Positions 5,144 to 62,969 of a DNA stretch of 64,000 bases are shown here, in pieces. Position 1 is the stretch's first letter. Each line of letters starts with the position of its first letter. The notes beneath the pieces are model-generated. The model made no database searches and had not been told where the DNA came from. It saw only the letters and a list, made by a program, of their open reading frames with translations. Where the stretch lies: the NCBI GenBank assembly GCA_963715895.1, contig OY970284.1:2441484-2505483 (forward strand), given 5' to 3'. The translations under genes and the position numbers were made by a program. Source of the DNA: Thermoanaerobaculia bacterium (lineage in GTDB: Bacteria > Acidobacteriota > Thermoanaerobaculia > Gp7-AA8).

Positions 5144-5258
5144 GGATTCGCCTCGGTGCACGTATCGCACCGATCCAGCCATTAGTCTCTGAGCTTCGCG
5201 GCAGGCCAATGCTACTGCGTGGTAAGTGAGCCAATAGGGAGACCAATGTGGCACAGAC

Positions 5259-6613: not shown

Positions 6614-6715
6614 GGCACAGACACTCTTGTCTGTGCCGGATCTCGCCACGACCCAAGACGCAAGCCCTCAGCGGCGGGCGGCTCCGGCCGGGGCACAGAC
6701 AAGAGTGTCTGTGCC
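6614..6715. repeat. 102-bp inter-IS spacer made of two inverted copies of the 24-bp hairpin ggcacagaca-ctct/agag-tgtctgtgcc flanking 54 bp
   Basis: 6614-6637 ggcacagacactcttgtctgtgcc; 6692-6715 ggcacagacaagagtgtctgtgcc. Outer halves continue as caatgtggcacagac (5244-5258) and gtctgtgccacattgg (8071-8086). Confidence 0.8.
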
Positions 6716-8070: not shown

Positions 8071-8134
8071 GTCTGTGCCACATTGGTCCCTGGTTTCCGG
8101 CACCAACGGACAACGCGGCGCGAAGCGCCGCGCC

Positions 8135-9523: not shown

Positions 9524-9640
9524 GGCGCGGGATTCTAATGGACGTTGCATCCTGAGGCGGCGGCAGCCCCGGCAGAGCGCGCCGAAGGACCCCAACCTGA
9601 AACCCGGACGGGCGGCGGAATGTCGACTAACCCTCGACTA

Positions 9641-9952
9641 ACCCGCATTTCTCACAGCATTGCTTCGCTTCTTGTCACGCCCTTTCGTCGAGAGCCTTCT
9701 CCTCCCGCGGTTTTTTGCGGGAGGAGAAGGTGCCGACAGGCGGATGAGGAGGGCGTATACGCGTCAGAAACGATTCTCGCGTCGTTGGCCGAACGGCGCT
9801 TGAAAGCACGAATCGCGCGCGAATAACGCACGCGTGAATGCCCCCTCATCCGCCTGTCGGCACCTTCTCCCCCGCAAGAAACCGCGGGGGAGAAGGCCCT
9901 CGACGGTAACAGAGTGCCGACGATTTACGTGAGAGTGTGAGAAATGCGGGCT
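9641..9952. repeat. modular MITE-like element copy A (57-nt hairpin module in inverted pair around a variable core; outer IR cccgcatttctcaca / tgtgagaaatgcggg)
   Basis: Module ccttctccYcccgcggttttttgcgggRggagaaggtgccgacaggcggatgaggRgggcg. Its reverse complement (cccctcatccgcctgtcggcaccttctcccccgc...gcgggggagaagg) follows 90 bp later. Related copies are at 32054, 46737, 55003 and 62619. Confidence 0.65.
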
Positions 9953-10067
9953 AATCCGCCACCCAACCGGGATACAACTTGGGGGTCCTTCGACCGTCCT
10001 GCGCCGCGCAATCGCTTTCGCGATTACGCGGCTCCGGCGGCTCAGGATGACAGTGTTCGGATCGTGT

Positions 10068-32053: not shown

Positions 32054-32370
32054 GCCCGGCACTTCTCACACTCTGACGTAAATCGCCGCCACCCTGTACC
32101 CCGTCGAGGGCCTTCTCCCCCGCGGTTTCTAGCGGGGGAGAAGGTGCCGACAGGCGGATGAGGGGGCGCTCGCGCGTGTGTTATTCGCGCGCGAGTCGTG
32201 CTTTCAAGCGGCGATTGCGCCAACGGCGCAAGATCGTTTCTGACGCGTATGCGCCCTCCTCATCCGCCTGTCGGCACCTTCTCCCCCCGCAAAAAACCGC
32301 GGGGGGAGAAGGCCCTCGACGGGGTAAAGAGTGCCGATGATTTACGTGAGAGTGTGAGAAATGCGGGCTC
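32054..32370. repeat. modular MITE-like element copy B
   Basis: Two inverted 57-nt hairpin modules (ccttctcccccgcggtttctagcgggggagaaggtgccgacaggcggatgagggggcg and its complement). Outer IR ttctcacactctgacgtaaatcg / cgatgatttacgtgagagtgtgagaa. Confidence 0.65.
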
Positions 32371-32460: not shown

Positions 32461-35400
32461 ATGTCGCTCGCCGAAGTCCTCAATCCGCATCAGAAAGCAC
32501 CGCAGAAGAACGTCGTCGAATACGCGATGGTCGACGGCAACGAAGCCGTGGCCCGCATCGCCTACGCGATGAACGAAGTGATCGCCATCTATCCGATCAC
32601 GCCATCCTCCTCGATGGGTGAATGGGCGGATGCCTGGTCGGCGGCAAAGCAGAAGAATCTCTGGGGGACGATTCCGGCGGTCGTGGAGATGCAGAGCGAG
32701 GGGGGCGCGGCGGGAGCGGTGCATGGCGCGTTGCAGACCGGATCGCTTGCCACGACCTTCACCTCGTCGCAGGGCCTGCTGCTGATGATCCCGAATATGT
32801 ACAAGATCGCCGGCGAGCTCACCCCGGCGGTGTTCCATGTCGCGGCGCGCTCCCTGGCCACGCACGCGTTGTCGATCTTCGGCGATCACTCCGACGTGAT
32901 GTCGGTCCGCTCGACCGGCTGGGTGATGCTCTGCTCGGCCAGCGTTCAGGAAGCACAGGATTTCGCCATGATCGCGCACGCCGCCACGCTAGAGGCGCGC
33001 ATCCCCTTCCTGCATTTCTTCGACGGCTTCCGCACGTCGCACGAGATCGCCCGGATCGAAGTGCTTTCCGAGGATCAGATGAGGGCGATGATCGACCTCG
33101 AGCTGGTCTTCGATCACCGCTCCCGCGCCCTGTCGCCCGATCATCCGGTCATCCGCGGTACGGCGCAGAACCCGGATGTCTTCTTCCAGTCGCGGGAACG
33201 GTCCAATCCGTTCTATCGCGACTGCGCATCGATCGTCGTCGAGACGATGGAGCGCTTCGCGCGCGTCACCGGCCGCGCCTACGCGCCGTTCGAATATCAC
33301 GGTGATCCTGTAGCTGAGCGCGTAGTGATCGTCCTCGGCTCGGCCGCCGAGACGCTGCATGAGACCGTCGACGTGTTGCGGGATCAGGGAGAACGCGTCG
33401 GCGTGCTGAAGGTGCGGCTCTATCGCCCCTTCGACAACCAACGCTTCCTCGATGCACTGCCGGAGTCGGCCCGCGCCATCGCCGTGCTCGACCGCACCAA
33501 GGAGCCCGGCGCCGCTGGTGAGCCGCTCTATCTCGACGTCGTCAACGCTCTCTTCGACTCCGACCGCCGCCCGCGCGTGATCGGCGGACGCTACGGCCTC
33601 TCCTCGAAGGAGTTCACTCCGGCCATGGCCAAAGGCGTTTTCGATCATCTCCTCGACCCCAAGCCGCGGAAACAGTTCACCGTGGGGATCGTCGACGACG
33701 TGACGCACCTGAGCATCGACTACGACCGGGCGTTTTCTACTGAGACCACTGACGTCTACCGCGCCATGTTCTACGGACTGGGGTCGGACGGCACGGTCGG
33801 CGCGAACAAGAACACCATCAAGATCATCGGCGAGGAGGGTGGCCGCTTCGCGCAGGGCTACTTCGTCTACGACTCGAAAAAAGCGGGGGCGATCACGGTG
33901 TCGCACCTTCGTTTCGGACCTCGGCCGATCCGCTCGACGTATCTGGTCACCAGCGCGAACTTCATCGCCTGCCACCAGCCACAGTTCGTCGAACGCGTCG
34001 ACATGCTGAAGGACCTGGCGCCGGGCGGGACGTTCCTGCTCAACGCGCCGGCGGGTTTCATTCTGCCGCGCACGTTCGCGGCGCAGTTGGCCGCGAAGAA
34101 GGCACGCGTCTTTGCCATCGACGCCACGCGCGTGGCCGCCGAGTGCGGCCTCGGCAACCGCATCAATACTCTGATGCAGGTCTGCTTCTTTGCCACCGCC
34201 GAGGTGCTGCCGATCGAGGAGGCGCTGGAAGCCGTCCGCGAGACCATCCGCAAGACCTACGCGAAGAAGGGCGAGAAGGTCGTGGCCATGAATCTCCGCG
34301 CGGTCGACGCCGCGCTGCAGAGTCTGCGTCCGATCGCGATCGACACGGAAGCACAGACAAGAGTGTCTGTGCCACAAGAGACAGGAGTGTCTGTGTCACA
34401 AAAGGAGAGCCAATGTGGCACAGACACTCTTGTCTGTGCCGGGCCGCTCCGCGACGTCATCCTGCCGATCATCGAAGGCCGCGGTGAGGATCTCCCGGTC
34501 AGCGCCATGCCGTGCGACGGCACGTTCCCTTCCTCCACCGCGCGCTACGAGAAGCGCAACCTCGCCACCGAGATCCCGGTGTGGGATCCGGTCTCCTGCA
34601 TCCAGTGCGGCAAGTGTGCGATGGTCTGTCCGCACGCGGCCATCCGGATCAAGGCCTATGACCAGTCGCTGCTGGAAGGCGCGCCGGCCACGCTCAAGTC
34701 GCTGACGCCGATGCACAAGGATTGGGCAGGGCTGGCGTACACCATCCAGGTCGCACCGGAGGACTGCACCGGTTGCACGATCTGCGTCGACGTCTGCCCG
34801 GCCAAGAGCAAGAGCGTTCCAGACCGCAAGTCGCTTTACATGCAGCCGCAGCCGCCGCTGCGCGATGCGGAGCGCGAGAACTGGAACTGGTTCCTCGATC
34901 TGCCGGAGCTCGACCGATCGAAACTCAATCCGACGCTGATCCGGCATCAGCAGCTCCAACAGCCGATGTTCGAGTTCTCCGGCGCCTGCTCCGGCTGCGG
35001 CGAGACGCCGTATGTAAAGCTGCTCACACAGCTCTTCGGCGACCGCCTGGTCGTGGCCAATGCCACCGGCTGCTCGTCGATCTACGGCGGCAATCTGCCG
35101 ACGACGCCCTGGTCGACGAACCGTGACGGCCGCGGCCCCGCCTGGGCGAACTCCCTCTTCGAGGACAACGCCGAGTTCGGCCTCGGCTTCCGCGTTTCGA
35201 TCGACAAACAGCGTGACTTTGCCATCGAGCTGCTGAAGTCTCTCGCCCCCGCCGTCGGCGAGAACCTGGCGGCCTCGATCATCGATGCCACCCAGCGCGA
35301 CGATGCCGAGATCTTCGAGCAGCGCAAGCGCGTCGAGCTGCTCAAAGTCGCTCTGCGCCGCCTGGAGCTGAAGACCCGGATGCACAAGCTCGATCCGACC

Positions 35401-36087
35401 GACGAGCAACAGCTCCTGGCGCTGGCCGACTTGCTCGTTAAAAAGTCCGTGTGGATCCTCGGCGGCGATGGCTGGGCCTACGACATCGGCTTTGGCGGAC
35501 TCGATCACGTCCTGGCCAGCGGCCGGAACGTGAAGGTGCTCGTCCTCGACACCGAGGTCTATTCGAACACTGGCGGACAGATGTCGAAGGCGACCCCCCG
35601 CGCGGCCGTGGCCAAGTTCGCCGCCGGCGGCAAGGCCGCCAGGAAGAAGGACCTCGGCCTGATCGCGATGACGTACGGGCACGTCTATGTCGCCAGCGTG
35701 GCCATGGGCGCGCGTGACGAGCACACGCTCAAATCGTTCATCGAAGCCGAGGCGTATGACGGCCCGTCGCTGATCATCGCCTACAGCGCCTGTGTCGCCC
35801 ACGGCTACGATCTGGGGACATCGCTGCAGCACCAGAAGACGCTGGTCGAATCCGGCCAGTGGCTGCTCTACCGCTACAACCCCGAGCGCACCGCTGAAGG
35901 CAAGAACCCGCTCCAGCTCGACTCGCGCGCCCTCAAGCTCCCCGTCGAGAAGTTCCTTCGGATGGAGAACCGCTTCAACCAACTGCTGAAGAACGACACC
36001 GAGGAATCCCGCAACGTGATCGCCGCCGCGCAGCACGACGTCGACGCACGGTGGAAGATGTACAGCTATTTGGCGGCGGAGAAGTGA
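32461..36087 (+). CDS. por: pyruvate:ferredoxin (flavodoxin) oxidoreductase, single-chain NifJ/Por type (1208 aa)
   Basis: Domains I-III, two ferredoxin-type 4Fe-4S motifs (CIQCGKCAMVCP, CTGCTICVDVCP), TPP-binding GDGWAYDIGFGGLDHVLASGRNVKVLVLDTEVYSNTGGQ. Start at ATG 32461 (MSLAEVLNPHQKAPQKNVVEYAMVDGNE). Confidence 0.9.
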   Translation: MSLAEVLNPHQKAPQKNVVEYAMVDGNEAVARIAYAMNEVIAIYPITPSSSMGEWADAWSAAKQKNLWGTIPAVVEMQSEGGAAGAVHGALQTGSLATTFTSSQGLLLMIPNMYKIAGELTPAVFHVAARSLATHALSIFGDHSDVMSVRSTGWVMLCSASVQEAQDFAMIAHAATLEARIPFLHFFDGFRTSHEIARIEVLSEDQMRAMIDLELVFDHRSRALSPDHPVIRGTAQNPDVFFQSRERSNPFYRDCASIVVETMERFARVTGRAYAPFEYHGDPVAERVVIVLGSAAETLHETVDVLRDQGERVGVLKVRLYRPFDNQRFLDALPESARAIAVLDRTKEPGAAGEPLYLDVVNALFDSDRRPRVIGGRYGLSSKEFTPAMAKGVFDHLLDPKPRKQFTVGIVDDVTHLSIDYDRAFSTETTDVYRAMFYGLGSDGTVGANKNTIKIIGEEGGRFAQGYFVYDSKKAGAITVSHLRFGPRPIRSTYLVTSANFIACHQPQFVERVDMLKDLAPGGTFLLNAPAGFILPRTFAAQLAAKKARVFAIDATRVAAECGLGNRINTLMQVCFFATAEVLPIEEALEAVRETIRKTYAKKGEKVVAMNLRAVDAALQSLRPIAIDTEAQTRVSVPQETGVSVSQKESQCGTDTLVCAGPLRDVILPIIEGRGEDLPVSAMPCDGTFPSSTARYEKRNLATEIPVWDPVSCIQCGKCAMVCPHAAIRIKAYDQSLLEGAPATLKSLTPMHKDWAGLAYTIQVAPEDCTGCTICVDVCPAKSKSVPDRKSLYMQPQPPLRDAERENWNWFLDLPELDRSKLNPTLIRHQQLQQPMFEFSGACSGCGETPYVKLLTQLFGDRLVVANATGCSSIYGGNLPTTPWSTNRDGRGPAWANSLFEDNAEFGLGFRVSIDKQRDFAIELLKSLAPAVGENLAASIIDATQRDDAEIFEQRKRVELLKVALRRLELKTRMHKLDPTDEQQLLALADLLVKKSVWILGGDGWAYDIGFGGLDHVLASGRNVKVLVLDTEVYSNTGGQMSKATPRAAVAKFAAGGKAARKKDLGLIAMTYGHVYVASVAMGARDEHTLKSFIEAEAYDGPSLIIAYSACVAHGYDLGTSLQHQKTLVESGQWLLYRYNPERTAEGKNPLQLDSRALKLPVEKFLRMENRFNQLLKNDTEESRNVIAAAQHDVDARWKMYSYLAAEK
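34351..34440. repeat. inverted pair of the 24/30-nt hairpin element inserted in-frame inside the por coding sequence
   Basis: 34351-34373 gcacagacaagagtgtctgtgcc; 34411-34440 caatgtggcacagacactcttgtctgtgcc; degenerate third copy 34381-34399. Translated as ...EAQTRVSVPQETGVSVSQKESQCGTDTLVCAG... without stop or frameshift. Confidence 0.8.
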
Positions 36088-36194
36088 GGGGGGCGGTGGA
36101 TTAGTGGATCAGGTTCCGGCCCCGTATTCGAGAAAACGTAGGTCGGACTCTCTAGGCCGACCGGTGCTCGCGCGGGCCGATCGCTCCAACCGCA

Positions 36195-36575
36195 TTCTTC
36201 ACGAGCGGTCGTGTAGCCTCCAGAGCCTCATGGGTGTGGCTTGAAGCCTCTCAGGGTGGACTCTGAGCCTCCTCCATGACGCTTTAGGCCTACCCCATGA
36301 GGCGTCGAGCCTCCTCAGTAGATCCATGGATCTACCCAAGTGGGCTCTAAGCCTACCCCATGAGGCTGTAGGTCTCTTCAGTAGATCCATGGATCTACTC
36401 AAATAGGCTTTAAGCCTACCCCATGAGGCTTTAAGCTTTAAGCCTATTCGGTAGATCCATGGATCTACACCATGAGGCTTAAAGCCTACCCTATGAGGCT
36501 TGAAGCCTATTCAGTAGATCCTGGGATCTACTCGAGACGAAAAAAAGCCTATTCAGTAGATTCAGAATCTACTCG
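36195..36575. repeat. array of about 6 units (about 63 bp) each carrying an 18-bp palindrome GTAGATCCATGGATCTAC and a second IR AAGCCTaccccatgAGGCTT
   Basis: Perfect palindromes at 36318-36335, 36381-36398, 36451-36468; variants at 36514-36531 and 36555-36571. In the convergent por / 36562 gene intergenic, bordering the low-GC islet. Confidence 0.75.
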
Positions 36576-37080
36576 ACTGCCGATTCGAGCCTCTCGCACG
36601 CGGGAACACCAACCCCGTCACGAGGTCGCCGGCCACTGCATCGCCATCGACAGTCCAGGCACTTCCGCCAGCTCCTCGGGCGTGCGCCGACGCCACGCCT
36701 TCCAGCTCCCGCGTCAGCACCGCATCGACCGACGTCCCCTCCCGCCGCGCCAGAGCCCGCAGCACGTCCCGCTGATACCGCGGAACTCGCGCCCGCAGCT
36801 CCACCAGCCGGATCGCCTCCGGCAGCACCGACGGCGCATCCTTCCCGAGCGCAGCTTCGATGACGGACTGCTCGTACTTCTGCATCGCCACCGCCACCAG
36901 CTCCTCCCTCGTCATCCGCTCGCCGAGCGCGGTCCAAACCGCTACAATCGCTCCATCCTCGATCTCCCGTTTCAGATCCCTGAGGGTGAGCCCAAGCAGA
37001 TCCGCCGCCGTCATGAGCGCGAAGTTGGGACGGGGAGCGAGGAAGATGTGATGGATGCGGGAGCGGGTGGATTCGTCCAT
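36562..37080 (-). CDS. hypothetical protein (possible small HTH / antitoxin-like helical protein)
   Basis: 172-aa ORF with genome-typical codon bias; segment AADLLGLTLRDLKREIEDG resembles an HTH. 3' end overlaps the palindrome array. No firm family assignment. Confidence 0.4.
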   Translation of the reverse strand: MDESTRSRIHHIFLAPRPNFALMTAADLLGLTLRDLKREIEDGAIVAVWTALGERMTREELVAVAMQKYEQSVIEAALGKDAPSVLPEAIRLVELRARVPRYQRDVLRALARREGTSVDAVLTRELEGVASAHARGAGGSAWTVDGDAVAGDLVTGLVFPRARGSNRQSSRF

Positions 37081-37114
37081 GAAGTTCTCCTCATCGAGCC
37101 CTTAGACACAACAT

Positions 37115-38224
37115 TTAGTCCGCCGCCGAGTTGTTATCTGCAGTAGGCCAGCGAGTGCTCGAGTAGCCCACGTGCGATCGTTGCGGAACGCGACGCTTTC
37201 CCGGGTCGAAGGGATACCACTCGACTTTCTTCGCGACCATGAGTGAAACGAGAGGCAAGCATAGAGGCTCACCTAAGTTGCGCCGAATGTGGGCGAGCAG
37301 GAAAGCGACCGACGCCGACGCGTTCAGCCATTCGGCAACATCTTCAATCGTAAACGCCAACGCAGGTGGATCAAAATGTGCGAAATGATTTCGAACGTCT
37401 TTGAGGCGAATGAACTGATTGATTTCGCCTGGACATTTCTCGAGAGGCTTTCCCGTGATCTTGCCGACCCATCTCAACTTGTCGCGTATGCTTTGCCCAT
37501 GAGTCGGGCCGAGTGACTCTGGGTCGAACGTCCATCCATGGCTCGCGGCCTCGTACTTCGCCCGGTAATAGAGTTGATGCAGCGTGTTATCTACGGCCGC
37601 GACCACTGTGCTGAAATAGGCGAACAGTTCGCGAAGCCACTCGTCCTCGAACATCAAGTCTGACCGCTCGACAAGGTTCCTGTATATCTCCATCCAGGCT
37701 TGCAGCAATACCAGTTGAAGAGAGGAGAACGCCCGTCCTTCACGATCGAGCTGTGGTACAACAGGAAACGAGTCGGAAACTGCGGTCGGAAACATGAACG
37801 TAAGCGCTTCATCAAGCTTTTCGTTGCACGGCGCGTGAAATTTTGGCGCGGCAGCAACGGACGCGTCAAGCCAACCTGAGATGAGCGGTGGAAAGTTGAA
37901 ACGGCCGGGATCGAATGTCTGATGATCTGCTAGCTGATCGCAAATCGACTGCCAGCGAAACGGACGCGTGATCTGTTGCGTTTTCTCACGTTTCCATCTG
38001 AACACCAGCCAATCAGCCTCTCTCCATTTCGTGAAGGACATTGTCTGTTTGTAGTACGACTCAAGAATCATCGAAGTCGTGGCGCGAACGCGCGCCTTGT
38101 CCGGAGGTCCTATCTGAAAACGAAGAGGATAGTACGTGCCCCGCGTGGCTAAAGGACTCGTAGTCATGTCGTACGTGAGTTCGTCATCCATCGAGACGAA
38201 TTGTATGAGATTGCGGGCTTCCAT
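37115..38224 (-). CDS. hypothetical 369-aa protein in low-GC islet; carries an R-N-x-x-A-H motif (DVRNHFAHF) like HEPN / AbiD-AbiF (Abi_2) abortive-infection proteins
   Basis: GC about 50-55% versus about 68% for neighbours. Motif RNHFAH about 100 aa from the C-terminus. No other recognisable domain. Family assignment is inference only. Confidence 0.5.
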   Translation of the reverse strand: MEARNLIQFVSMDDELTYDMTTSPLATRGTYYPLRFQIGPPDKARVRATTSMILESYYKQTMSFTKWREADWLVFRWKREKTQQITRPFRWQSICDQLADHQTFDPGRFNFPPLISGWLDASVAAAPKFHAPCNEKLDEALTFMFPTAVSDSFPVVPQLDREGRAFSSLQLVLLQAWMEIYRNLVERSDLMFEDEWLRELFAYFSTVVAAVDNTLHQLYYRAKYEAASHGWTFDPESLGPTHGQSIRDKLRWVGKITGKPLEKCPGEINQFIRLKDVRNHFAHFDPPALAFTIEDVAEWLNASASVAFLLAHIRRNLGEPLCLPLVSLMVAKKVEWYPFDPGKRRVPQRSHVGYSSTRWPTADNNSAAD

Positions 38225-38481
38225 GCCGAGGCAGCCACATGCAGATTGGTGTGACCCCGGTAGCTCTAGCCACGATTGGGGTCAGGTCTAAAGTCGAAAG
38301 TTCCGAAAGACCAAAGATGAAAGCGACCCGTCTGAATCGGTACCTTCGGATTTAGACCTGATAGGCTCCCTTATCGTTCGTGGTAGAGGCGCGAATGAGA
38401 AGAGAAGGCCTACCACTCCGCCACCTATGCCTGGTATGGTACCCTCTTACTTCCACAGAGATTGCACGCGAAAGGAAGGTA

Positions 38482-39156
38482 ATGGTCGAAGCCAATCCGA
38501 GTCAAGTCAAGAGTGCCTGGATCGCGGCTCTTGCCACGATCCTCGCAGCGGTCATCGGTGCTGGTGCCCTGATACTTGTGAACAGCCACAGGAATCAAGA
38601 AAGTCAGCATCAGGAGATCGCAGCTCTACAGCATGAAGCAACCACACTTCGTGGCGAACTGGAACAGAAAACCAAGGAAGTCAACACGCTCTCCGCTTCT
38701 CTCGCAACGAAGCGGAACCAACCTGCCCCGGGCCAGTTGACTGCGGGACCTGGAGCAACGGATTCCGCCAGCTTAGCGACGACAACAGGCGACGACAATG
38801 GCTTTGTGCTCGTGCTTGATCGATGCGTGCGCGCTGGACCAGCGGTGACGTGCAGCATGACCTTTCGGAATACTGGAGTTGAACGTCGTCTCATGATCGA
38901 ACTGGGTGATGGAAACACTCACGCTCTTGACGACCAGGGGATCCAGCGTGTCGCGCCAGAGGGGGAAGTCGCCGGAGTACATGGAGACTGGCCGTCCGTC
39001 GTTGTGCCTTCCGGTCTCACCGTTCCCGTAAAGATCCGTTTTCGAGACATCCCCGGTTCGGTGAAACAATTCGCTTTCATGAACGTGCAGTTTTCGCACA
39101 GCGATGGAAATGGGGGGCATCATATAGAACTACGCTCGATCCCAATCGTGAATTGA
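38482..39156 (+). CDS. membrane-anchored hypothetical protein (N-terminal TM, coiled coil, C-terminal beta-rich domain) in low-GC islet
   Basis: MVEANPSQVKSAWIAALATILAAVIGAGALILV then EIAALQHEATTLRGELEQKTKEVNTLSASL. SD aggaagg before ATG 38482. Divergent from the 37115..38224 gene. Confidence 0.5.
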   Translation: MVEANPSQVKSAWIAALATILAAVIGAGALILVNSHRNQESQHQEIAALQHEATTLRGELEQKTKEVNTLSASLATKRNQPAPGQLTAGPGATDSASLATTTGDDNGFVLVLDRCVRAGPAVTCSMTFRNTGVERRLMIELGDGNTHALDDQGIQRVAPEGEVAGVHGDWPSVVVPSGLTVPVKIRFRDIPGSVKQFAFMNVQFSHSDGNGGHHIELRSIPIVN

Positions 39157-39230
39157 GGCAACAGGGCGAGTTGTTTGGAGTTTGGGCCGTATCTGGAAAA
39201 TCAATTTAGCTGGCGGCCCCCAATCCAAGT

Positions 39231-39515
39231 TTACATTGAATTCCAGGCATCCACACCAGATCCATCAGCGACGCACCTATCCAGTGCCTCGAGCGCTTCA
39301 GCAGTCGAAATGGGATTGCGGCGCTCGGCTCTACGGAGCAATCTCGAAACCGCCCTCCTCCGACCGGCTGGGTCGTTGATAGGGCGGTGCTCACGGTGTG
39401 CCTCCGCAAGAGCGGCTCGGCGAACAAAGGAGCTACGCGTCTCGCCGGCCTTGCGTGCCGCAGCGTCAATGACCCGGAGATCGGTCTCGGGCAGTGAAAC
39501 GAGAACCTTGCGCAT
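39231..39515 (-). CDS. ribbon-helix-helix (CopG/antitoxin-like) DNA-binding protein
   Basis: MRKVLVSLPETDLRVIDAAARKAGETRSSFVRRAALAEA = RHH signature. Start at ATG 39515. Confidence 0.55.
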   Translation of the reverse strand: MRKVLVSLPETDLRVIDAAARKAGETRSSFVRRAALAEAHREHRPINDPAGRRRAVSRLLRRAERRNPISTAEALEALDRCVADGSGVDAWNSM

Positions 39516-39531
39516 CCAAATAGTATATCTA

Positions 39532-39543
39532 ACGGATATCCGT
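39532..39543. promoter_or_regulatory. perfect palindrome ACGGATATCCGT in an AT-rich stretch 17-28 bp upstream of the RHH gene; candidate autoregulatory operator
   Basis: Sequence aaatagtatatctaACGGATATCCGTagagg; RHH repressors typically bind such inverted repeats. Confidence 0.3.
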
Positions 39544-39622
39544 AGAGGTTGGTTCTTCCGCTTCGCGCCTTCGCGGCTTCGCGTGAGATCGATGTTCACG
39601 CGAAGCGCAGATATCCACTGCC

Positions 39623-39889
39623 TCACACCATCGCGCAACGCGCTTCCGTCGCGATCGGATCCTCACCTGCTTCCGTGAGGATGATCTCGTACAGTGCGAG
39701 CGTGTCGGCGATGAGGGCGTCGTCGATGCGGCGTACGGCGTGGCCTTCATGTTCGAGGATGTAGTCGCCGACGGCGAGCTCCCCGTGGAGCAGGTCGAGC
39801 TGCACTTCGCGGGTCATGCCCCAGAAATCACATTCGACGACTGTTTCATCGATGAACCGGACAATCTGGCCAGGAGCTCCGAGACACAT
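39623..39889 (-). CDS. hypC: HypC/HybG/HupF-family [NiFe]-hydrogenase maturation chaperone (orphan)
   Basis: Begins MCLGAPGQIVRF... (conserved N-terminal Cys2 of HypC); 88 aa; ...GDYILEHEGHAVRRIDDALIADTLALYEIIL. No other hyp/hydrogenase genes in the window. Confidence 0.75.
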   Translation of the reverse strand: MCLGAPGQIVRFIDETVVECDFWGMTREVQLDLLHGELAVGDYILEHEGHAVRRIDDALIADTLALYEIILTEAGEDPIATEARCAMV

Positions 39890-39968
39890 GACGCACCTCC
39901 GAGCCGTGACGATCGCATGCGGCCGGGTTGGCGTCGAGATCGGACCGCACACGTCCACGTGATTCGCG

Positions 39969-40510
39969 TCACGCGGAGGCGCGAAGCACTTATGGAGGGC
40001 GGTTGTGCGCGGAGGCGCGGACCACAATTCAGCCCCGCGCTCGGCGCAGCGCGAGCGCGGGGAATCGGTGGTGATGTGGAAGTGCGGCCGCGGAGGCGGC
40101 CGCTACAAGCTGTGCGGATCCGCTTCTGTTGCGAATTGGGCGGCGTTGTCCCGGCCGCCTCCGCGGCCGGCAAATGGGCGACCCCTCGTACCCCGCGCTC
40201 GCGCTACGCAGAGCGCGGGGCTGGATTGTGGAGCGCGCCTTCGCGCGAACCGGGAGCGCTGGCGCCAATCGCGTTTGGTTGTGGGCGATAGCCCGCGGAG
40301 TCAGGGGCGGCGCGGGCCGGGGGCGAGACCTCAGCGCTCCGCAAACCACCGCCCCGCCCGGCAAGATGCCAAACGTCTGCGGTAACCCGGCGGCGGGACG
40401 CACGCCGGGCCAGCCGGCGAGACGCCAGCGCTCCGGAAAACCCCCGCCGCCCGACCCGGTGAGACGCCACGGCTCTTTTTCTCCGCGTCTCCGCGTCTTC
40501 GCGTGAAACC
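39969..40510. repeat. 540-bp non-coding region: GCGGAGRC-family arm (39969-40023), GC-rich hairpins ccccgcgctcg...cgagcgcgggg (40033-40059, 40184-40211), about 100-nt direct repeat (ggcgagacNNcagcgctccgNaaaccNccgccNcgcccgg, at about 40322 and 40419), and matching right arm tttttctccgcgtctccgcgtcttcgcgtgaaacc (40476-40510)
   Basis: Seen directly in sequence; same arm family as 20109 and 31983. Confidence 0.55.
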
Positions 40511-40512
40511 GT

Positions 40513-41301
40513 CTACCCCTTCCCCATCACCCGCTCCAGCTCTTCCCGCCGATTGCGGCTCAGCGGAAGCTCCGTTCCATCCTTCAGCCGCACCGCGTAG
40601 TCGCCGCCGGAGGCGCGGAGGAGGATGTCGATGCGGTCGAGGCGGACGATGGCGGAGCGGTGGAGGCGGAAGAAGAGGGCGGGGTCGAGCTTCTCTTCCA
40701 GCGTCTGCATCCGTTCGCGCACGGCGAAGGTCTTGTCGCCGGCGTGCAGTTCGGCGTAGGGACCGCTGGCGGTGATGTAGTCGATCTTCGACACCGGGAC
40801 GACGCGCATCTGGCCGCGCTGCTCCACCGGGATGCGGTCGAGGTAGTGGCGCTTCGGAGGTTCCGGCGCGGCGCTTTCGTGCAGGAGCGTGGCCAGTTGT
40901 TTCGTCAGGCGTTCCACCTGCCGCAGCTCGATGGTCTTGCGGGCCCGGGCCAGGGCCTGCGCGAAGCGCTCGTCGTCGAACGGTTTGACGAGATAGTCGA
41001 TGGCGGCCACCTCGAAGGCCTTCAGCGCGAACTGATCGAACGCGGTCACGAAGATCGTCACCGGCATCCGGTCGGCGCCGATGGCGGCGACGACTTCGAA
41101 GCCGGTCATGCCGGGCATCTGCACGTCGAGAAAGACGAGATCGGGTGCGAACTTTCGGATGGCCGCCACCGCTTCCGGCCCATTCGAGGCTGTACCGACG
41201 ACGTCCACGGACGGATCGCGGGCCAGGAGGTCCTCGATGCGCTGGCGCGCCAGAAGCTCGTCATCGGCGATGACGACGTGCAATGTCTTCGTCTCAGGCA
41301 T
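40513..41301 (-). CDS. LytTR-family response regulator (REC + LytTR DNA-binding)
   Basis: LHVVIADDELLARQRIEDLL...LDVQMPGMTGFEV; C-terminal LytTR (YLDRIPVEQRGQMRVVPVSKIDYITASGPYAELHAGDKTF). Confidence 0.85.
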   Translation of the reverse strand: MPETKTLHVVIADDELLARQRIEDLLARDPSVDVVGTASNGPEAVAAIRKFAPDLVFLDVQMPGMTGFEVVAAIGADRMPVTIFVTAFDQFALKAFEVAAIDYLVKPFDDERFAQALARARKTIELRQVERLTKQLATLLHESAAPEPPKRHYLDRIPVEQRGQMRVVPVSKIDYITASGPYAELHAGDKTFAVRERMQTLEEKLDPALFFRLHRSAIVRLDRIDILLRASGGDYAVRLKDGTELPLSRNRREELERVMGKG

Positions 41302-42436
41302 GCGTGTCCGTCCGGAAGGGAAGGATCATCTCCGCGATCGCTCCTCCCTCGCTGTGCGAGGTAAGAGTGAACGATGCCGCGTCACCGTACAACTCCGTGA
41401 GGCGTGCGCGGGTGTTGCCGAGACCGACGCCCGTGGCGGCGGCCGGCTCAACGCCGGGGCCGTTGTTGATTACGGTGATGACCAGCTCGTCATCGCGTCT
41501 GCGCGCCGCGATCGCGACGACACCCTCGCCGGTGGCGCGTGCGGCCCCGTGCTCGAGGGCGTTCTCGACGATCGGCTGGAGGATCAGGCGCGGGACGAAT
41601 GCCGCAAGCGTCTCCTGGCCGGCGTCGATGCTCGTTCGCAGATGCCCCTGGAAGCGTACTTCCATGATGTCGATGTAGCGGCGGAGAAACGACAGCTCCT
41701 GGCCGAGGGTCACCTCGTGCTCGGCTTCGCTGTCCATCGTCAGGCGCAGCAGCTCGCTGAGGCGGGCAATCATCCTCCGGACTCCGGCCGGATCGCGCTC
41801 CACCAGCGCGGCGATGGCGTGGAGGGTGTTGAAGAGGAAGTGTGGATTGAGCTGCATCCGCAGCGCGTCGAGGCGCGCGTCGGCAAGCTGGACCTGCAGC
41901 AGCGCGGCGCGCGCGCCGAGGGCGCTCGCTTCCCGGATGCGAAGCTGATCGCGGATGAAGTACTTGCGCGCGTAGCCCGCGATGAGCACGGCCACGAAGA
42001 CCAGGAAGTGATTCACGAAACGGAAGCGGCCGATGTCGCGCAGCGGCTCGAAGAGCGCCGGCGGCGGGCGATGCGCAACGGCTGTCTCGAAGAACTGTTC
42101 ACGCAGCTCGGCCAGGCCGGAGTAGACGATGACGGAGATGACGATCCCGATCGCGAGCAGAGCGGGGATCTGCACGACCCAGCGCGACCGCTCGATGCTG
42201 AAGCGGCTGCTGAGCCAGAAGACGAACGGCGTCAGCGCCGCCCAGATCCACGACTCGAGGAACGCCAGCGCGATCGGGCCGACCGGAGAGATGCCGCGAA
42301 AGCCGAATCCGCGCGGGTCGAGAAGACGGTTGACCGACGCAAGCGTCGCCAGCGACGTCCAGAAGACGAAGATGAAAAACAGCTCGCGGCGCGACAGTCG
42401 TCTCCAGGATGCCGTCATCACGCTCGAAACTAGCAC
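41294..42436 (-). CDS. LytS/AlgZ/YehU-type sensor histidine kinase (TM + His_kinase PF06580-like + HATPase_c)
   Basis: LNPHFLFNTLHAIAALV (H-box of this family), ...QPIVENALEHGAA...VINNGPGV. Several N-terminal TM helices. Overlaps the response-regulator start. Confidence 0.8.
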   Translation of the reverse strand: MLVSSVMTASWRRLSRRELFFIFVFWTSLATLASVNRLLDPRGFGFRGISPVGPIALAFLESWIWAALTPFVFWLSSRFSIERSRWVVQIPALLAIGIVISVIVYSGLAELREQFFETAVAHRPPPALFEPLRDIGRFRFVNHFLVFVAVLIAGYARKYFIRDQLRIREASALGARAALLQVQLADARLDALRMQLNPHFLFNTLHAIAALVERDPAGVRRMIARLSELLRLTMDSEAEHEVTLGQELSFLRRYIDIMEVRFQGHLRTSIDAGQETLAAFVPRLILQPIVENALEHGAARATGEGVVAIAARRRDDELVITVINNGPGVEPAAATGVGLGNTRARLTELYGDAASFTLTSHSEGGAIAEMILPFRTDTHA

Positions 42437-46736: not shown

Positions 46737-47028
46737 GCCTCACTCTCATGTAAATCGCCGGCGCCCTCTTTACCCATCGACGGCCTTCTCCCCCGCGGTT
46801 TCTGGCGGGGGAGAAGGTGCCGACAGGCGGATGAGGGGGCGCTTGCGGGTGCGTTATTCGTGCGCGACACGTGTTTTCAAGCGGCCCTTGGGCCAACGAC
46901 GCAAGATCGTTTCTGACGCGTATGCGCCTCCCTCATCCGCCTGTCGGCACCTTCTCCCCCCGCAAAAAAACCGCGGGGGGAGAAGGCTCTCGGCGAAAGG
47001 GCGTGGCAAGAAACGAAGCAATGCTGTG
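46737..47028. repeat. modular MITE-like element copy C (left outer IR truncated; right end runs into the parE-like toxin gene)
   Basis: Contains the 57-nt hairpin module in inverted pair. Right-end homology to copy A ends at cacagcattgcttcg (47014-47028, reverse strand). Confidence 0.6.
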
Positions 47029-48634: not shown

Positions 48635-49207
48635 ATGAAAGGGATGCTTCGCCTCGGGACTTTGTTGATCGCGCTGTTGCTGGCGATCGGCTGTTCGCAT
48701 CAGTCCGATCTGTCGCGGCCGGCGTCTCAGGACAACTTCGGTGTGCAGATGGCGCGGATGAATCTCTGGCGCGAAGCAATGTTCCGCTTCGAGCGCGCCA
48801 TCCAGATCAATCCCGGTGACGCCCAGGCGCACAACAATCTCGCCGTCGCCTACGAGGCCAACGGGGACTTCGAGAAGGCGCGCAAGGAGTATCTCGAAGC
48901 GCTGAAGCTCGATCGCACCAATCCCTACATTCAGAAGAACTACAGCCGCTTCGTGGAGTCCCTCTCGCGCAACAAGAAACGGCAGCTGCCGGGAGTGAAC
49001 GCGGCTGTCCAGCCCAAAGGGCCGGTGAACAACCCTCAGGGGGGTGGGACGGTTACCACCGCGCAGCCCGCAGGCATCGAGGTACCGCCGCCCTCCGCCG
49101 TGAGCCCGCCGGGCGCTCCGCCGAGCGATCGCCCGCAACCGCAGCCGCCCACGCAGCCATCACCACCGCCCACGCCGCCGCCAACTCTGCCAGGAGGTGC
49201 TGCATGA
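48635..49207 (+). CDS. TPR-repeat lipoprotein with Pro-rich C-terminal tail
   Basis: Lipobox LLAIGC. TPR (AIQINPGDAQAHNNLAVAYEANGDFEKARKEYLEALKLD). C-terminal PPPSAVSPPGAPPSDRPQPQPPTQPSPPPTPPPT. Confidence 0.7.
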   Translation: MKGMLRLGTLLIALLLAIGCSHQSDLSRPASQDNFGVQMARMNLWREAMFRFERAIQINPGDAQAHNNLAVAYEANGDFEKARKEYLEALKLDRTNPYIQKNYSRFVESLSRNKKRQLPGVNAAVQPKGPVNNPQGGGTVTTAQPAGIEVPPPSAVSPPGAPPSDRPQPQPPTQPSPPPTPPPTLPGGAA

Positions 49208-49887
49208 AGCACATTGCCATCGTCGCCTTCGCCTTGCTGTTGCCGCTCACGTCGCTGGCCGGGGTGACGGAGGTCAAACTGAAGCTTCCGCTGAAGGCGA
49301 AGCTCTCGATCGCCGGCGACGAGAAGGTCGCCATCGCTCCCTTCGTCATCGCCAACCGCGAAAAGAAGAACGACCGCGCATCGAAGGTGGACGTGCAAGC
49401 GGAGTTTCAGCGCTACCTGAAGAAGCAGTTGACCAAGAATACGAAGCTGCGCCTCGTCGACGTGCCCCAGACCCGTCTGCCCGGTACCGACATGAAGGCC
49501 CTCGAGGCAAATCGCGATTACTGGAAGAGCCTGGGCGCGAAGACAGGCGCGGATTACATCGTCACCGGCATCGTCGATTTCGACGTCAACGACAAGTCCG
49601 GATACAAAACCGAAGAGTACGTCTCACCGGCGGATGGTAGGACGTATTACCGCCAGGTGCTCATCGAGACCACCGGCTTCGTCTTCGATATCGACATGGC
49701 CGTCTTCAATGCCGACACAGGCGAGAAAGTGCTCGAAGACAATTTCCGCGATTTCAAAGAGTTCGATCAACGCAATTACGACGAGATCCTCGGTCTATTC
49801 GAGAATCTCCGGTCCATGGAGACTCAGCTCGTTGGTATTTTCGTGCCCCAGGAGACCTCGGCTTCGAGATACGTGTTCACGGAGTAG
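49204..49887 (+). CDS. secreted hypothetical protein
   Basis: Signal peptide MKHIAIVAFALLLPLTSLAGV; no recognised domain. Overlaps the TPR gene stop, so probably co-transcribed with the 49898 outer-membrane protein. Confidence 0.55.
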   Translation: MKHIAIVAFALLLPLTSLAGVTEVKLKLPLKAKLSIAGDEKVAIAPFVIANREKKNDRASKVDVQAEFQRYLKKQLTKNTKLRLVDVPQTRLPGTDMKALEANRDYWKSLGAKTGADYIVTGIVDFDVNDKSGYKTEEYVSPADGRTYYRQVLIETTGFVFDIDMAVFNADTGEKVLEDNFRDFKEFDQRNYDEILGLFENLRSMETQLVGIFVPQETSASRYVFTE

Positions 49888-49897
49888 GGAGTAGTTC

Positions 49898-55004: not shown

Positions 55005-55262
55005 TCCCAAAGTGGATACCGGCCAGGGCGCGGCAAGTACTGCCCCCTCATCCGCCTGTCGGCACCTTCTCCCCCAGCTGAAAAGCGCTGGGGGAGAAGG
55101 ACTCTCGATGTAAGGGAAGCGCAAGCTCTTGTTCTCTCGGGGCGGTCGCAGGGTTTGGAAGAAATCTTCGTGTTACGTGCTCGCGCTTCCCTAATATCGA
55201 GAGTCCTTCTCCCCCGCGTTTTTCAGCGGGGGAGAAGGTGCCGACAGGCGGATGAGGGGGCG
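55003..55262. repeat. modular MITE-like element copy D (variant core; shares about 40-bp left-flank homology with copy E)
   Basis: ccccctcatccgcctgtcggcaccttctcccccagctgaaaagcgctgggggagaagg ... ccttctcccccgcgtttttcagcgggggagaaggtgccgacaggcggatgagggggcg. Confidence 0.6.
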
Positions 55263-62618: not shown

Positions 62619-62930
62619 GGGTCTCAAAACGTGGATACGGCAAGGGCATGGCAAGCACCGCCCCCTCATCCGCCTGTCGGCACCTTCTCCCCCAGCTGAA
62701 AAGCGCTGGGGGAGAAGGGCTCTCGATGTTAGGGAAGCGCAAGCTCTTGTTCTCGGGGCGGCCGCACGGTTCTGGAACTAATCTTCGCGTCACGCGCAGA
62801 GCCCAAGGCTTAGTACTGCAGACTGCTTGAGCCACTGGCCACGCCCTTTCGTCGAGAGTCCTTCTCCCCCCGCGGTTTTTTGCGGGGGGAGAAGGTGCCG
62901 ACAGGCGGATGAGGGGGGCGTATACGCGAC
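62619..62930. repeat. modular MITE-like element copy E occupying the position where nuoI would be expected (between nuoH and nuoJ)
   Basis: Same 57-nt modules as the other copies; right end gcgtatacgcgacataaacgat is homologous to the interior of copy A. Confidence 0.6.
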
Positions 62931-62969
62931 ATAAACGATCTACCGACCCTGGTTCGATTGAAAGCGTCG

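What the first reader, a model, noticed from the sequence alone, without database searches (positions are those of the whole stretch)
37115..39160. Low-GC two-gene islet with a possible HEPN/Abi_2-like protein, bordered by repeat arrays
GC drops to about 50-55% across two divergently transcribed genes. One is a 369-aa protein with no recognisable domain except an R-N-H-F-A-H motif (Rx4H, as in HEPN RNases and AbiD/AbiF abortive-infection proteins). The other is a TM-anchored coiled-coil protein. The islet is bounded upstream by the 63-bp palindrome array (36195-36575) and downstream by an RHH gene with an operator-like palindrome. Compositional contrast plus repeat boundaries suggest horizontally acquired DNA, possibly an uncharacterised anti-phage module.
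Basis: inference. Interest (0 to 1): 0.6.

Follow-up and report, generated by a model that had tools for sequence, protein, structure and literature searches.

The report
Stand-alone mobile HEPN RNase-like gene
The low-GC patch holds a horizontally mobile, single-gene member of an uncatalogued family of HEPN-type (probable RNA-cutting) proteins that is a reasonable but untested anti-phage candidate, while the neighbouring membrane protein is an unrelated orphan gene and not its partner.

Summary
The sequence features are real. The region 37115-39515 has the lowest GC in the window (0.553 against 0.632, z = -3.0). GC3 is 0.56-0.61 against 0.79-0.88 in native genes.

The 369-aa protein matches no Pfam, NCBIfam, PADLOC or PHROG model. 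It belongs to a coherent family of about 200 clusters (50% identity) spread over at least six phyla. Family-wide, the only invariant residues are R278, N279 and P286, inside R-N-H-x-x-H-F-D-P-P.

The gene is stand-alone: no neighbour is conserved across about 50 loci. It is poorer in GC than its flanks in 52 of 56 loci. A copy 85.5% identical in DNA sits in a different context in a related organism. One relative fuses this HEPN domain to a Type I R-M specificity subunit inside a defence island.

It is not a member of Abi_2, ApeA or HepT-MntA. The TM/coiled-coil gene is an ORFan, so the "two-gene module" is not supported. An anti-phage role is plausible but untested.

The parts
37115..38224 (-). 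Gene for the stand-alone HEPN-like protein. It is annotated as 369 aa. The probable true start is the ATG at 38191, giving 358 aa.
   Evidence: ORF. There are 33 homolog clusters at 90% identity and about 198 at 50%. Family N-termini align to Met12, and a 358-aa call exists in the same cluster. GC is 0.54 and GC3 0.61.
37137..38206 (-). Segment shared at 85.5% nucleotide identity with loci L058/L059, where the gene lies in a different genomic context. This is the apparent mobile unit: the coding sequence plus about 15 nt upstream.
   Evidence: blastn. Other shared genes between the two organisms are only 70-73% identical.
37892..38125 (-). Core of the N-terminal domain (residues 34-111). It is a small alpha/beta unit specific to this family, with no known structural relative.
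37718..37891 (-). Poorly modelled linker (residues 112-169). It carries the conserved W118-L-D120 and D160-R-E-G163 motifs.
   Evidence: These residues are invariant in A1. D120, P154 and G163 are at least 90% conserved in A2. pLDDT is 44-62.
37235..37717 (-). C-terminal HEPN-like helical bundle (residues 170-330). Helices 170-186, 194-229, 265-283 and 293-317 form the core, with a helical insert at 235-257 between helices 2 and 3.
37376..37393 (-). Predicted catalytic motif R278-N-H-F-A-H283 (Rx4H), at the C-terminal end of helix 3.
   Evidence: R278 and N279 are invariant, and H280 and H283 are at least 90% conserved, in 90 members. The position matches the HEPN rule given in PMC3710099.
38282..38361 (.). 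Imperfect 25-nt inverted repeat in the divergent intergenic region upstream of the HEPN-like gene. It is probably local and is not part of the family.
   Evidence: Repeat. The fold gives z = -3.0. Upstream regions of relatives cannot be aligned with it.
38482..39156 (+). ORFan gene for a membrane-anchored coiled-coil protein with a C-terminal beta-rich region (224 aa; the ORF is open from 38380). It shares the compositional islet but is not a conserved partner.
   Evidence: It found only itself among 5.8 billion proteins. It is absent from all family loci. GC3 is 0.56 and the TM segment scores KD 2.55.
39231..39515 (-). Ribbon-helix-helix (CopG/VapB-like) gene of 94 aa with atypical GC3. It has no toxin partner in the window.
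   Evidence: RHH_1 E 0.0015 and HicB_lk_antitox E 5.9e-5. VapB E 9.4e-5. GC3 is 0.60. A 76%-identical homolog is in L062.
39576..39606 (.). Perfect 11-nt palindrome with a 9-nt spacer upstream of the RHH gene. It lies inside a 44-nt element that is dispersed in related genomes.
   Evidence: Palindrome. Window 39562-39605 is 100% identical in L060 and 91% in L062. A related copy is at 40471-40511.
36562..37080 (-). Native-GC 172-aa gene lying 35 nt downstream of the HEPN-like gene. It belongs to a large multi-copy Thermoanaerobaculia family and is not a dedicated partner.
   Evidence: More than 670 homolog clusters. It is usually paired with an XRE-type HTH gene elsewhere. GC is 0.67 and GC3 0.79.

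Best explanation
Gene 37115-38224 (-) encodes a stand-alone protein of a previously uncatalogued family in the HEPN superfamily. The gene moves horizontally on its own.

Shown:
- The C-terminal half (about residues 170-330) adopts the HEPN four-helix bundle.
- An invariant R-N-x-x-x-H motif sits at the end of helix 3.
- The gene has no conserved neighbour and has foreign composition in almost every host.
- It occurs at high identity in different genomic contexts.

Inferred, by analogy with characterised HEPN nucleases (HepT, PrrC, ApeA, DARNA):
- Two protomers dimerise through the bundle, so that R278/N279/H283 from each form a composite, metal-independent RNase site that cleaves cellular RNA (tRNA anticodon loops or mRNA).
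- The family-specific N-terminal region keeps the nuclease inactive until a trigger appears. This region comprises the alpha/beta core at 34-111 and the conserved W-L-D and D-R-E-G loops. The trigger is most plausibly a product of phage infection.
- The outcome would be growth arrest, that is, abortive infection.

The adjacent TM/coiled-coil ORFan and the RHH gene share the low-GC patch, but they are not functional partners of the family.
For: Fold:
- AlphaFold2 model has pLDDT 81.4 and pTM 0.80.
- The top Foldseek hits are HEPN toxins.

Motif:
- R278, N279 and P286 are the only invariant columns in 90 members that are 21-65% identical to the window protein. H280, H283, D285 and P287 are at least 90% conserved.
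- The motif closes helix 265-283 and leads into the loop before helix 293-317. Asn follows Arg, and a helical insert lies between helices 2 and 3. All three match the rules in PMC3710099.

Sequence:
- HEPN_Apea is the only Pfam family hit recurrently (8 of 90 members, best E 0.0036), plus one HEPN_Cthe2314 hit.
- The family consensus matches HEPN_Apea (E 0.033) across the helix that ends in the motif.
- Three members give weak Csx1 hits.

Stand-alone and mobile:
- No neighbour cluster is shared by more than 4 of about 50 loci.
- A tight co-directional neighbour is present in only 8-10 of about 49 loci.
- The gene's GC is below its flanks in 52 of 56 loci, by 7 points on average.
- It is 85.5% identical in DNA over 1070 bp to L058/L059, where it follows a MazE-PIN pair. 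Homology ends at the CDS borders.
- Distribution is patchy: Acidobacteriota, Myxococcota, Desulfobacterota, Bacteroidota, Cyanobacteria, Verrucomicrobiota and others.

Defence link:
- P0134 fuses this HEPN domain to a Type I R-M specificity subunit (E 2.7e-126). It lies after HsdM and before an OLD-type ATPase/TOPRIM protein plus a UvrD helicase and an integrase.
- Among 150 flanking genes, N6 methylases are the commonest family. PADLOC hits include Type I, II and IIG R-M, a CBASS-type cyclase, mad genes and PDC-S31.
- An Abi_2-like gene is one of the two genes following the L035 member, about 1.7 kb downstream.
- ApeA and DARNA show that single-protein HEPN systems work this way.
Against: - No HEPN profile reaches its curated threshold. 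The consensus scores 15.1 bits against a 24.4-bit cut-off, and the window protein itself hits nothing.
- Foldseek E-values are 0.6-2.5 with probabilities of at most 0.47.
- RNase activity, dimerisation, toxicity and phage protection are all untested.
- Many family loci abut housekeeping genes, and defence-island enrichment was not quantified against a background.
- No member was found on plasmids or in GenBank phages, and only 1 was found in 2.9 million viral contigs.
- How a solo toxin is held in check is pure inference. The conserved N-terminal motifs lie in low-confidence parts of the model.
Confidence: 0.55

Rival explanations
1. The protein is the toxin of a toxin-antitoxin or addiction system whose antitoxin escaped detection. 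The antitoxin could be a fast-evolving small protein, a small RNA, or one supplied in trans. On this view the gene stabilises mobile DNA and does not defend against phage.
For: - The closest structural relatives are HepT toxins of HEPN-MNT TA systems.
- Family genes often lie among TA-type genes: MazE-PIN in L058/L059, BrnT in L001, HicB-like in L003, and RHH in the window.
- Small unannotated ORFs flank several members, for example 109 aa in L003 and 73 aa in L055.
Against: - No neighbour is conserved at BLAST level across about 50 loci.
- A tight co-directional small ORF is present in only about 10% of loci, and some of those are fragments of the gene itself.
- No MNT nucleotidyltransferase appeared among the recurrent neighbour families.
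- Phe replaces the AMPylated Tyr of the HepT Rx4HxY motif.
- Upstream regions show no conserved sequence or repeats, and Rfam finds nothing.
- The window RHH and the L003 HicB-like protein are unrelated.
Confidence: 0.15
2. The two or three low-GC genes (HEPN-like, TM/coiled-coil, RHH) form one functional anti-phage module. The membrane protein would act as sensor or effector.
For: - The three genes share atypical composition (GC3 0.56-0.61) and are adjacent.
- The HEPN-like and TM genes are divergently arranged around a 257-nt region that contains a hairpin.
Against: - The TM/coiled-coil protein has no homolog at all.
- No family locus, including the copy at least 90% identical in protein, has anything similar nearby.
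- DNA homology with L058/L059 stops at the CDS borders of the HEPN-like gene.
- The RHH homolog in L062 occurs without the other two genes.
Confidence: 0.04
3. The protein is a HEPN-fold protein with a non-defence cellular role, such as RNA processing, regulation or nucleotide binding. Its patchy distribution would reflect ordinary accessory-genome turnover.
For: - Many loci show only housekeeping neighbours, for example uvrA, tRNA synthetases, glycogen phosphorylase and glutamate dehydrogenase.
- HEPN domains also serve in RNA processing and as non-catalytic binding domains (PMC3710099).
Against: - The fully conserved catalytic-type R-N-x-x-x-H motif argues for an active nuclease.
- Consistently foreign GC, relocation between close relatives and sporadic phyletic spread are atypical for housekeeping functions.
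- One member is fused to an R-M specificity subunit in a defence island.
Confidence: 0.12
4. The protein is not a HEPN domain at all. It would be a generic four-helix bundle that happens to carry a conserved R-N-H-x-x-H-F-D-P-P motif with some other role, such as metal or ligand binding.
For: - No profile hit passes threshold.
- Foldseek matches are not significant.
- The extra His280 and the D-P-P tail are not canonical HEPN features.
Against: - HEPN proteins head both structure searches.
- HEPN_Apea is the only Pfam family hit repeatedly, and it aligns through the motif.
- An Abi_2-like HEPN protein aligns exactly at the motif.
- Motif position, the polar residue after Arg and the insert topology all fit published HEPN rules.
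Confidence: 0.1

Closest known systems
ApeA (HEPN_Apea, PF18739), a single-protein anti-phage abortive-infection system
   Same: - It is a single gene with no partner.
- It has a C-terminal HEPN domain with inserts.
[quoted passage not shown]
- For ApeA too, the closest structural homolog of the HEPN part is HepT (5YEP, 7AE8).
- HEPN_Apea is the only Pfam model that repeatedly touches this family.
   Different: - Hits are below threshold (15 bits against a 24.4-bit cut-off).
- ApeA is about 580 aa or more, with an N-terminal domain of about 200 aa plus a Mid domain of about 110 aa, and its inserts lie between H3 and H4. This family is about 350 aa, with a small alpha/beta core of about 80 aa, a conserved loop region, and its insert between H2 and H3.
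- No PADLOC defence model matched.
- Ligand activation and doughnut-shaped oligomers are unknown here.
HepT toxin of HepT-MntA (HEPN-MNT) toxin-antitoxin systems (PDB 5YEP, 7AE8)
   Different: - HepT is a minimal HEPN of about 130 aa and is always paired with an MNT nucleotidyltransferase antitoxin that AMPylates a Tyr in Rx4HxY.
- Here there is a 165-residue N-terminal extension.
- No MNT neighbour was seen.
- Phe284 occupies the Tyr position.
Abi_2 / AbiD-AbiF family (PF07751)
   Same: - The proteins are of similar size (about 350 aa) and are single-protein HEPN abortive-infection factors.
- The motif neighbourhood resembles that of an Abi_2-like protein: L-K-D-V-R-N-H-L-x-H-F-D-P-P-C-F against I-N-D-L-R-N-R-I-A-H-H-E-P-V-C-F.
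   Different: - None of 90 members hits PF07751 at E <= 1.
- hhalign aligns only 22 columns, with probability 5.7%.
- AbiF is reported to be restrained by an RNA antitoxin. No conserved upstream RNA, repeat or structure exists here.
PrrC / RloC and other HEPN nucleases embedded in Type I R-M loci
   Same: One family member (P0134) has its HEPN domain fused to HsdS, directly after HsdM. This echoes the known physical and functional coupling of HEPN anticodon nucleases to Type I R-M systems (PMC3710099).
   Different: PrrC and RloC carry an ABC-ATPase N-terminal domain and are silenced by the R-M complex. The window protein and nearly all family members are solo and have no R-M neighbour.
DARNA (PD-T7-3)
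   Same: It is a single-protein HEPN abortive-infection system with an uncharacterised second domain acting as sensor. Its HEPN assignment rests on structure evidence of similar strength.
   Different: The domain order is opposite: DARNA has an N-terminal HEPN domain and a C-terminal helical sensor of about 300 aa. No sequence relationship was detected.

Membership tests
HEPN superfamily | Four-helix up-down bundle, with a variable insert between helices 2 and 3 | tested here: met
HEPN superfamily | Conserved Rx4-6H motif at the end of helix 3, with a polar residue (N, D or H) after the Arg | tested here: met
   R278-N-H-F-A-H283 closes helix 265-283. R278 and N279 are invariant and H283 is at least 90% conserved in 90 members. 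The rule is quoted from PMC3710099.
HEPN superfamily | Significant sequence-profile match to a curated HEPN family | tested here: not met
   Only sub-threshold hits were found. HEPN_Apea matches 8 of 90 members with best E 0.0036, and the consensus scores 15.1 bits against a 24.4-bit cut-off. The window protein itself hits nothing.
HEPN superfamily | Metal-independent RNase activity from a composite dimer active site | not testable with these tools
   This needs biochemistry or a multimer structure. No coordinates or multimer prediction were available.
Abi_2 (AbiD/AbiF, PF07751) | Match to the PF07751 profile | tested here: not met
   There was no hit at E <= 1 for the window protein or for any of 90 members. 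hhalign against an Abi_2-like protein aligns only 22 columns at the motif, with probability 5.7%.
Abi_2 (AbiD/AbiF, PF07751) | Upstream non-coding RNA antitoxin (reported for AbiF) | tested here: not met
   There are no tandem repeats upstream and no Rfam match. The local hairpin gives z = -3.0, but upstream regions of 6 relatives cannot be aligned.
ApeA | HEPN_Apea domain above threshold, or a defence-database ApeA model match | tested here: not met
   Pfam hits are sub-threshold only. No PADLOC model matched the protein or gave recurrent hits across the family beyond weak Csx1. That PADLOC 2.0.0 contains an ApeA model is from my own knowledge and was not verified.
ApeA | N-terminal (about 200 aa) plus Mid (about 110 aa) domains packed on the HEPN domain; total about 580 aa or more | tested here: not met
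ApeA | Single-gene system | tested here: met
   No neighbour is conserved and there is no consistent operon partner.
HepT-MntA type VII toxin-antitoxin | Adjacent MNT nucleotidyltransferase antitoxin gene | tested here: not met
   No neighbour is conserved. No nucleotidyltransferase family appeared among the 25 most recurrent neighbour families.
HepT-MntA type VII toxin-antitoxin | Rx4HxY motif with a modifiable Tyr | tested here: not met
   The motif reads R-N-H-x-x-H-F. Phe284 is at least 90% conserved in A1.
   The TM/coiled-coil protein found only itself. tblastn against 63 family-related loci gave no hit better than E 0.055. The neighbour of the copy that is at least 90% identical in protein differs.

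The most novel reading that the evidence does not exclude
The family is a new single-protein abortive-infection system. It would combine a HEPN RNase with a previously unseen N-terminal sensor domain (an alpha/beta core plus conserved W-L-D and D-R-E-G loops). It is spread by bare-gene transfer across at least six bacterial phyla and is missing from every current defence catalogue.
Probability: 0.4. Interest if true: 0.55.

Novelty: new variant of a known kind. Interest (0 to 1): 0.4.

Why it matters
If the family is an active, infection-triggered RNase, it adds a compact (about 350 aa) single-gene immunity system with a novel sensor domain to the HEPN repertoire.

- It would do so in phyla where defence systems are poorly sampled experimentally (Acidobacteriota, Bacteroidota, Myxococcota).
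- It would give Pfam, PADLOC and DefenseFinder a new model covering roughly 200 protein clusters that are now annotated only as hypothetical.
- The HsdS-HEPN fusion offers a natural example of coupling between an R-M system and a HEPN nuclease.
- If the protein is not defence-related, it is still a clean case of a mobile orphan HEPN gene.

For this window specifically, the result removes the idea of a two-gene module. It also shows that the low-GC patch is a mosaic of unrelated acquisitions.

Tried and rejected
1. Direct profile searches of the 369-aa protein (Pfam, NCBIfam, PADLOC, PHROGs) and PDB sequence searches with the single sequence and the family profile. None found anything meaningful.
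2. Conserved-partner search by all-against-all BLAST of ORFs within 4 kb in about 50 loci. It found no partner. Recurrent clusters occur in at most 4 loci and have no PADLOC hit.
3. The 172-aa downstream gene as a candidate antitoxin. Rejected: it belongs to a family of more than 670 clusters that is multi-copy and normally paired with an XRE HTH gene, independently of the HEPN family.
4. The RHH gene as a shared partner with L003's HicB-like gene. Rejected: the two are unrelated.
5. An empty-site test for presence/absence, using PFOR as anchor in metagenomes. The nearest relative is 81% identical, and none of 80 loci keeps the window's downstream genes, so the test was uninformative. L060 and L062 share the 172-aa gene, the RHH gene and a 44-nt element, but in a different order, because these are repeated elements.
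6. An RNA antitoxin or ncRNA upstream. Rejected.
8. Plasmid or phage carriage. No GenBank phage or PLSDB plasmid matched, and only one IMG/VR contig did.
9. Foldseek against AFDB was unavailable.
10. The 29-nt inverted repeat flanking the TM gene (38255-38283 / 39138-39166, 72% complementary) was judged a chance match.
Full report
**Observation.** The ORFs are as described: 37115-38224 (-), 369 aa, and the divergent 38380-39156 (+), 258 aa. Independent gene calls on a matching public contig give 369 aa and 224 aa, the latter starting at 38482. GC falls to 0.52-0.58 between about 37000 and 39400, against 0.62-0.69 on either side. The stretch 37115-39515 has GC 0.553, which is z = -3.0 against all 2.4-kb windows, and it contains the lowest-GC 2.4 kb of the whole 64 kb.

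Third-position GC separates native genes from three atypical genes:
- Native: PFOR 0.85, the 172-aa gene 0.79, LytTR regulator 0.88, histidine kinase 0.86.
- Atypical: 369-aa gene 0.61, TM/coiled-coil gene 0.56, RHH gene 0.60.

So the compositional islet covers three genes, not two. The 63-nt palindromic array exists at 36224-36565, but a native-GC gene (36562-37080) lies between it and the islet. The RHH gene (39231-39515) has a perfect 11-nt palindrome upstream at 39576-39606.

**The 369-aa protein is an orphan by every curated library but has a real family.** Pfam, NCBIfam, PADLOC and PHROGs return nothing for it, and a PDB sequence search returns nothing meaningful. A word-indexed search found 33 clusters, all labelled "hypothetical". 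An exhaustive profile search found 198 clusters at 50% identity, of which 118 have E < 1e-30, and nearly all cover the full length. In genomes the family occurs in MAGs and isolates labelled as Thermoanaerobaculia, Chloracidobacterium, Pyrinomonadaceae, Polyangiaceae/Myxococcota, Desulfomonilaceae, many Bacteroidota (Pedobacter, Mucilaginibacter, Spirosoma, Flavobacterium and others), Nostoc, Akkermansia and Chrysiogenia.

**Conservation points at the motif.** Among close relatives, many positions are invariant or at least 90% conserved. These include W118, D120, D160-R-E-G163, most of D212-N-T-L-H-Q-x-Y-Y-R221, and the R278-N-H-x-x-H-F-x-P-P287 block. Across 90 members that are only 21-65% identical to the window protein, the sole invariant columns are R278, N279 and P286. 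H280, H283, D285 and P287 are at least 90% conserved.

**Structure.** AlphaFold2 run on the family alignment gives pLDDT 81.4 and pTM 0.80. The model has three parts:
- A small alpha/beta N-terminal core (about residues 34-111) at high confidence.
- A poorly defined segment (about 112-169) that nevertheless carries the conserved W-L-D and D-R-E-G motifs.
- A helical bundle (helices 170-186, 194-229, 265-283 and 293-317) with a helical insert at 235-257.

**Independent sequence evidence.** I scanned all 90 members against Pfam at E <= 1. The only family hit repeatedly was HEPN_Apea (8 members, best E 0.0036), plus one HEPN_Cthe2314 hit. The consensus of the C-terminal half matches HEPN_Apea (E 0.033, 15.1 bits, cut-off 24.4) over the stretch that ends exactly in R-N-H-x-x-H-F-D-P. 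PADLOC gave three weak Csx1 (HEPN) hits and no other recurrent defence family. An Abi_2-like protein that is one of the two genes following the L035 member aligns with the family profile only over 22 columns centred on the motif (hhalign E 0.0067, probability 5.7%).

I conclude, with about 85% confidence, that the domain belongs to the HEPN superfamily. It is not a member of any curated HEPN family: Abi_2, ApeA and HepT each fail at least one defining test.

**Genomic behaviour: a solo, mobile gene.**
- All-against-all comparison of ORFs within 4 kb of the gene in about 50 loci found no shared neighbour beyond near-duplicate loci and two clusters present in 3-4 loci. Those clusters have no PADLOC hit.
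- Only 8-10 of about 49 loci have a co-directional neighbour within 60 nt. Several of those are fragments of the gene itself.
- The gene is poorer in GC than its flanks in 52 of 56 loci, by 7 points on average.
- Copies grouped in the same 90%-identity protein cluster, on contigs L058 and L059, lie after a MazE-PIN pair in an otherwise different neighbourhood. The only long DNA match to the window is the gene itself: 85.5% over 1070 bp, window 37137-38206, ending at the CDS borders. The LytTR and kinase genes shared by the two organisms are only 70-73% identical.
- No homolog is on PLSDB plasmids or in GenBank phages, and only one was found among 2.9 million viral contigs.

**Links to defence.**
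- One family member (P0134, 652 aa) is a genuine Type I R-M specificity subunit (PADLOC E 2.7e-126) whose C-terminus is this family's HEPN domain.
- In its locus it follows HsdM. It precedes an AAA_15/OLD-TOPRIM protein plus a UvrD helicase (a Gabija-like pair), then an rve integrase.
- Among 150 immediate neighbours across about 40 loci, the most frequent Pfam family is N6_Mtase (3). Resolvases, IS200 transposases and AbiEii-type AAA_21 ATPases occur twice each.
- PADLOC hits among those neighbours include Type I, II and IIG R-M components, a CBASS-type cyclase, mad2/mad3 and PDC-S31.
- Many other loci simply adjoin housekeeping genes. The association is therefore suggestive and was not quantified.

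**The other genes.** The TM/coiled-coil protein retrieved only itself from 5.8 billion proteins and is absent from all family loci. It is an ORFan with a clear TM segment.

The RHH protein is a weak CopG/VapB/HicB-type match. It is unrelated to the HicB-like gene next to the L003 family member. It has an 80%-identical DNA homolog in L062 that retains the upstream palindrome.

The 172-aa gene lying 35 nt downstream belongs to a large multi-copy Thermoanaerobaculia family (more than 670 clusters). Elsewhere it is paired with an XRE HTH gene. It is therefore native and not a partner.

No conserved RNA lies upstream of the HEPN-like gene. There are no repeats and no Rfam hit. A local hairpin (z = -3.0) is present, but it is not shared with relatives.

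**Mechanism.** The fold, the motif and the solo mobile behaviour are shown. The rest is inferred by analogy with HepT, PrrC, ApeA and DARNA. I propose that the protein dimerises through the HEPN bundle to form a composite, metal-independent RNase site from R278, N279 and H283. The family-specific N-terminal region would keep it silent until an infection-derived cue appears. RNA cleavage would then arrest the cell. ApeA is the closest functional model. It is a single protein with a C-terminal HEPN domain whose nearest structural relative is also HepT, it is activated through a pocket formed with the N-terminal domain, and it cleaves tRNA anticodon loops.

Rival readings, with rough weights:
- Toxin with a cryptic antitoxin: 0.15.
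- Non-defence HEPN function: 0.12.
- Not HEPN at all: 0.10.

**Novelty and verdict.** This is a divergent, uncatalogued HEPN family with a new N-terminal domain, so I rate it a new variant of a known kind. It is moderately interesting as a defence-system candidate and as a gap in the databases. A specialist would not find another HEPN family in a variable region surprising. The "two-gene module bordered by repeat arrays" framing should be dropped.

Noticed in passing
window 36224-36565; related copies near 9548-10055, 32102-32336, 46784-47009, 55042-55262 and 62659-62947; also L058 1137-1366 and L059 4918-5147: The units of the 63-nt palindromic array are a dispersed intergenic repeat family (REP- or MITE-like). 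It occurs at several places in the window and in a related organism's contigs. It is not a boundary specific to this islet. Rfam's only hits in the region are spurious miRNA-hairpin matches to these palindromes.
   Followed up: partly
window 39562-39605 (related copy at 40471-40511); L060 10489-10532; L062 2018-2062: A 44-nt element that contains the perfect 11-nt RHH-upstream palindrome is 100% identical in L060, where it lies directly after that genome's copy of the 172-aa gene. It is 91% identical in L062. It is either a dispersed short element or a shared operator.
   Followed up: partly
window 36562-37080 (-); L003 6600-7112; L060 10001-10465; L062 10001-10513: The 172-aa protein belongs to a large (more than 670 clusters), highly conserved Thermoanaerobaculia family with several copies per genome and no Pfam domain. 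It is typically paired divergently with an XRE-type HTH gene. In the window that HTH partner is missing, and the HEPN-like gene occupies the upstream position.
   Followed up: partly
L048 288-8023 (contig PFUG01000445.1, Deltaproteobacteria MAG): A defence island reads HsdM, then an HsdS-HEPN fusion (P0134), then an OLD-type AAA_15/TOPRIM protein plus a UvrD helicase (Gabija-like), then HTH and rve integrase genes and STAND/AAA ATPases. It is a natural fusion of a Type I specificity subunit to this family's HEPN domain.
   Followed up: partly
window 40007-40246: In the very GC-rich (0.73) spacer between HypC and the LytTR regulator there is a large nested inverted repeat. The outer arms are 56 nt (40007-40062 / 40191-40246, 89% complementary). 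The inner arms are 24 nt (40085-40108 / 40146-40169, 92% complementary). Its nature is unknown.
   Followed up: no
window 38191-38224: The annotated start (ATG at 38224) is probably 11 codons too far upstream. Family members align from Met12 (ATG at 38191). A TACAAT -10-like hexamer ending 8 nt before that ATG is conserved in L058, which hints at a near-leaderless transcript.
   Followed up: partly
L016 and L019 (records titled 'Enterobacterales' and 'Klebsiella pneumoniae' MAGs): The flanking DNA has about 69% GC, which is incompatible with the taxon names. These bins are probably mislabelled or contaminated.
   Followed up: no
window about 5000-8200 and 49200-50700: These are two further stretches of moderately low GC (0.55-0.575 in 1-kb windows). 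They might be other acquired segments.
   Followed up: no
window 39623-39889 (-): A HypC/HupF hydrogenase-maturation chaperone gene (TIGR00074, E 1.4e-14) stands next to the RHH gene. No other hyp genes were seen in the stretch examined (34000-42000). Its GC3 is intermediate (0.73).
   Followed up: no
L143 8007-9053 (IMGVR_UViG_2889676293_000002): This is the only family member found on a predicted viral or proviral contig (25% identity to the window protein). It may be a prophage-borne copy.
   Followed up: no
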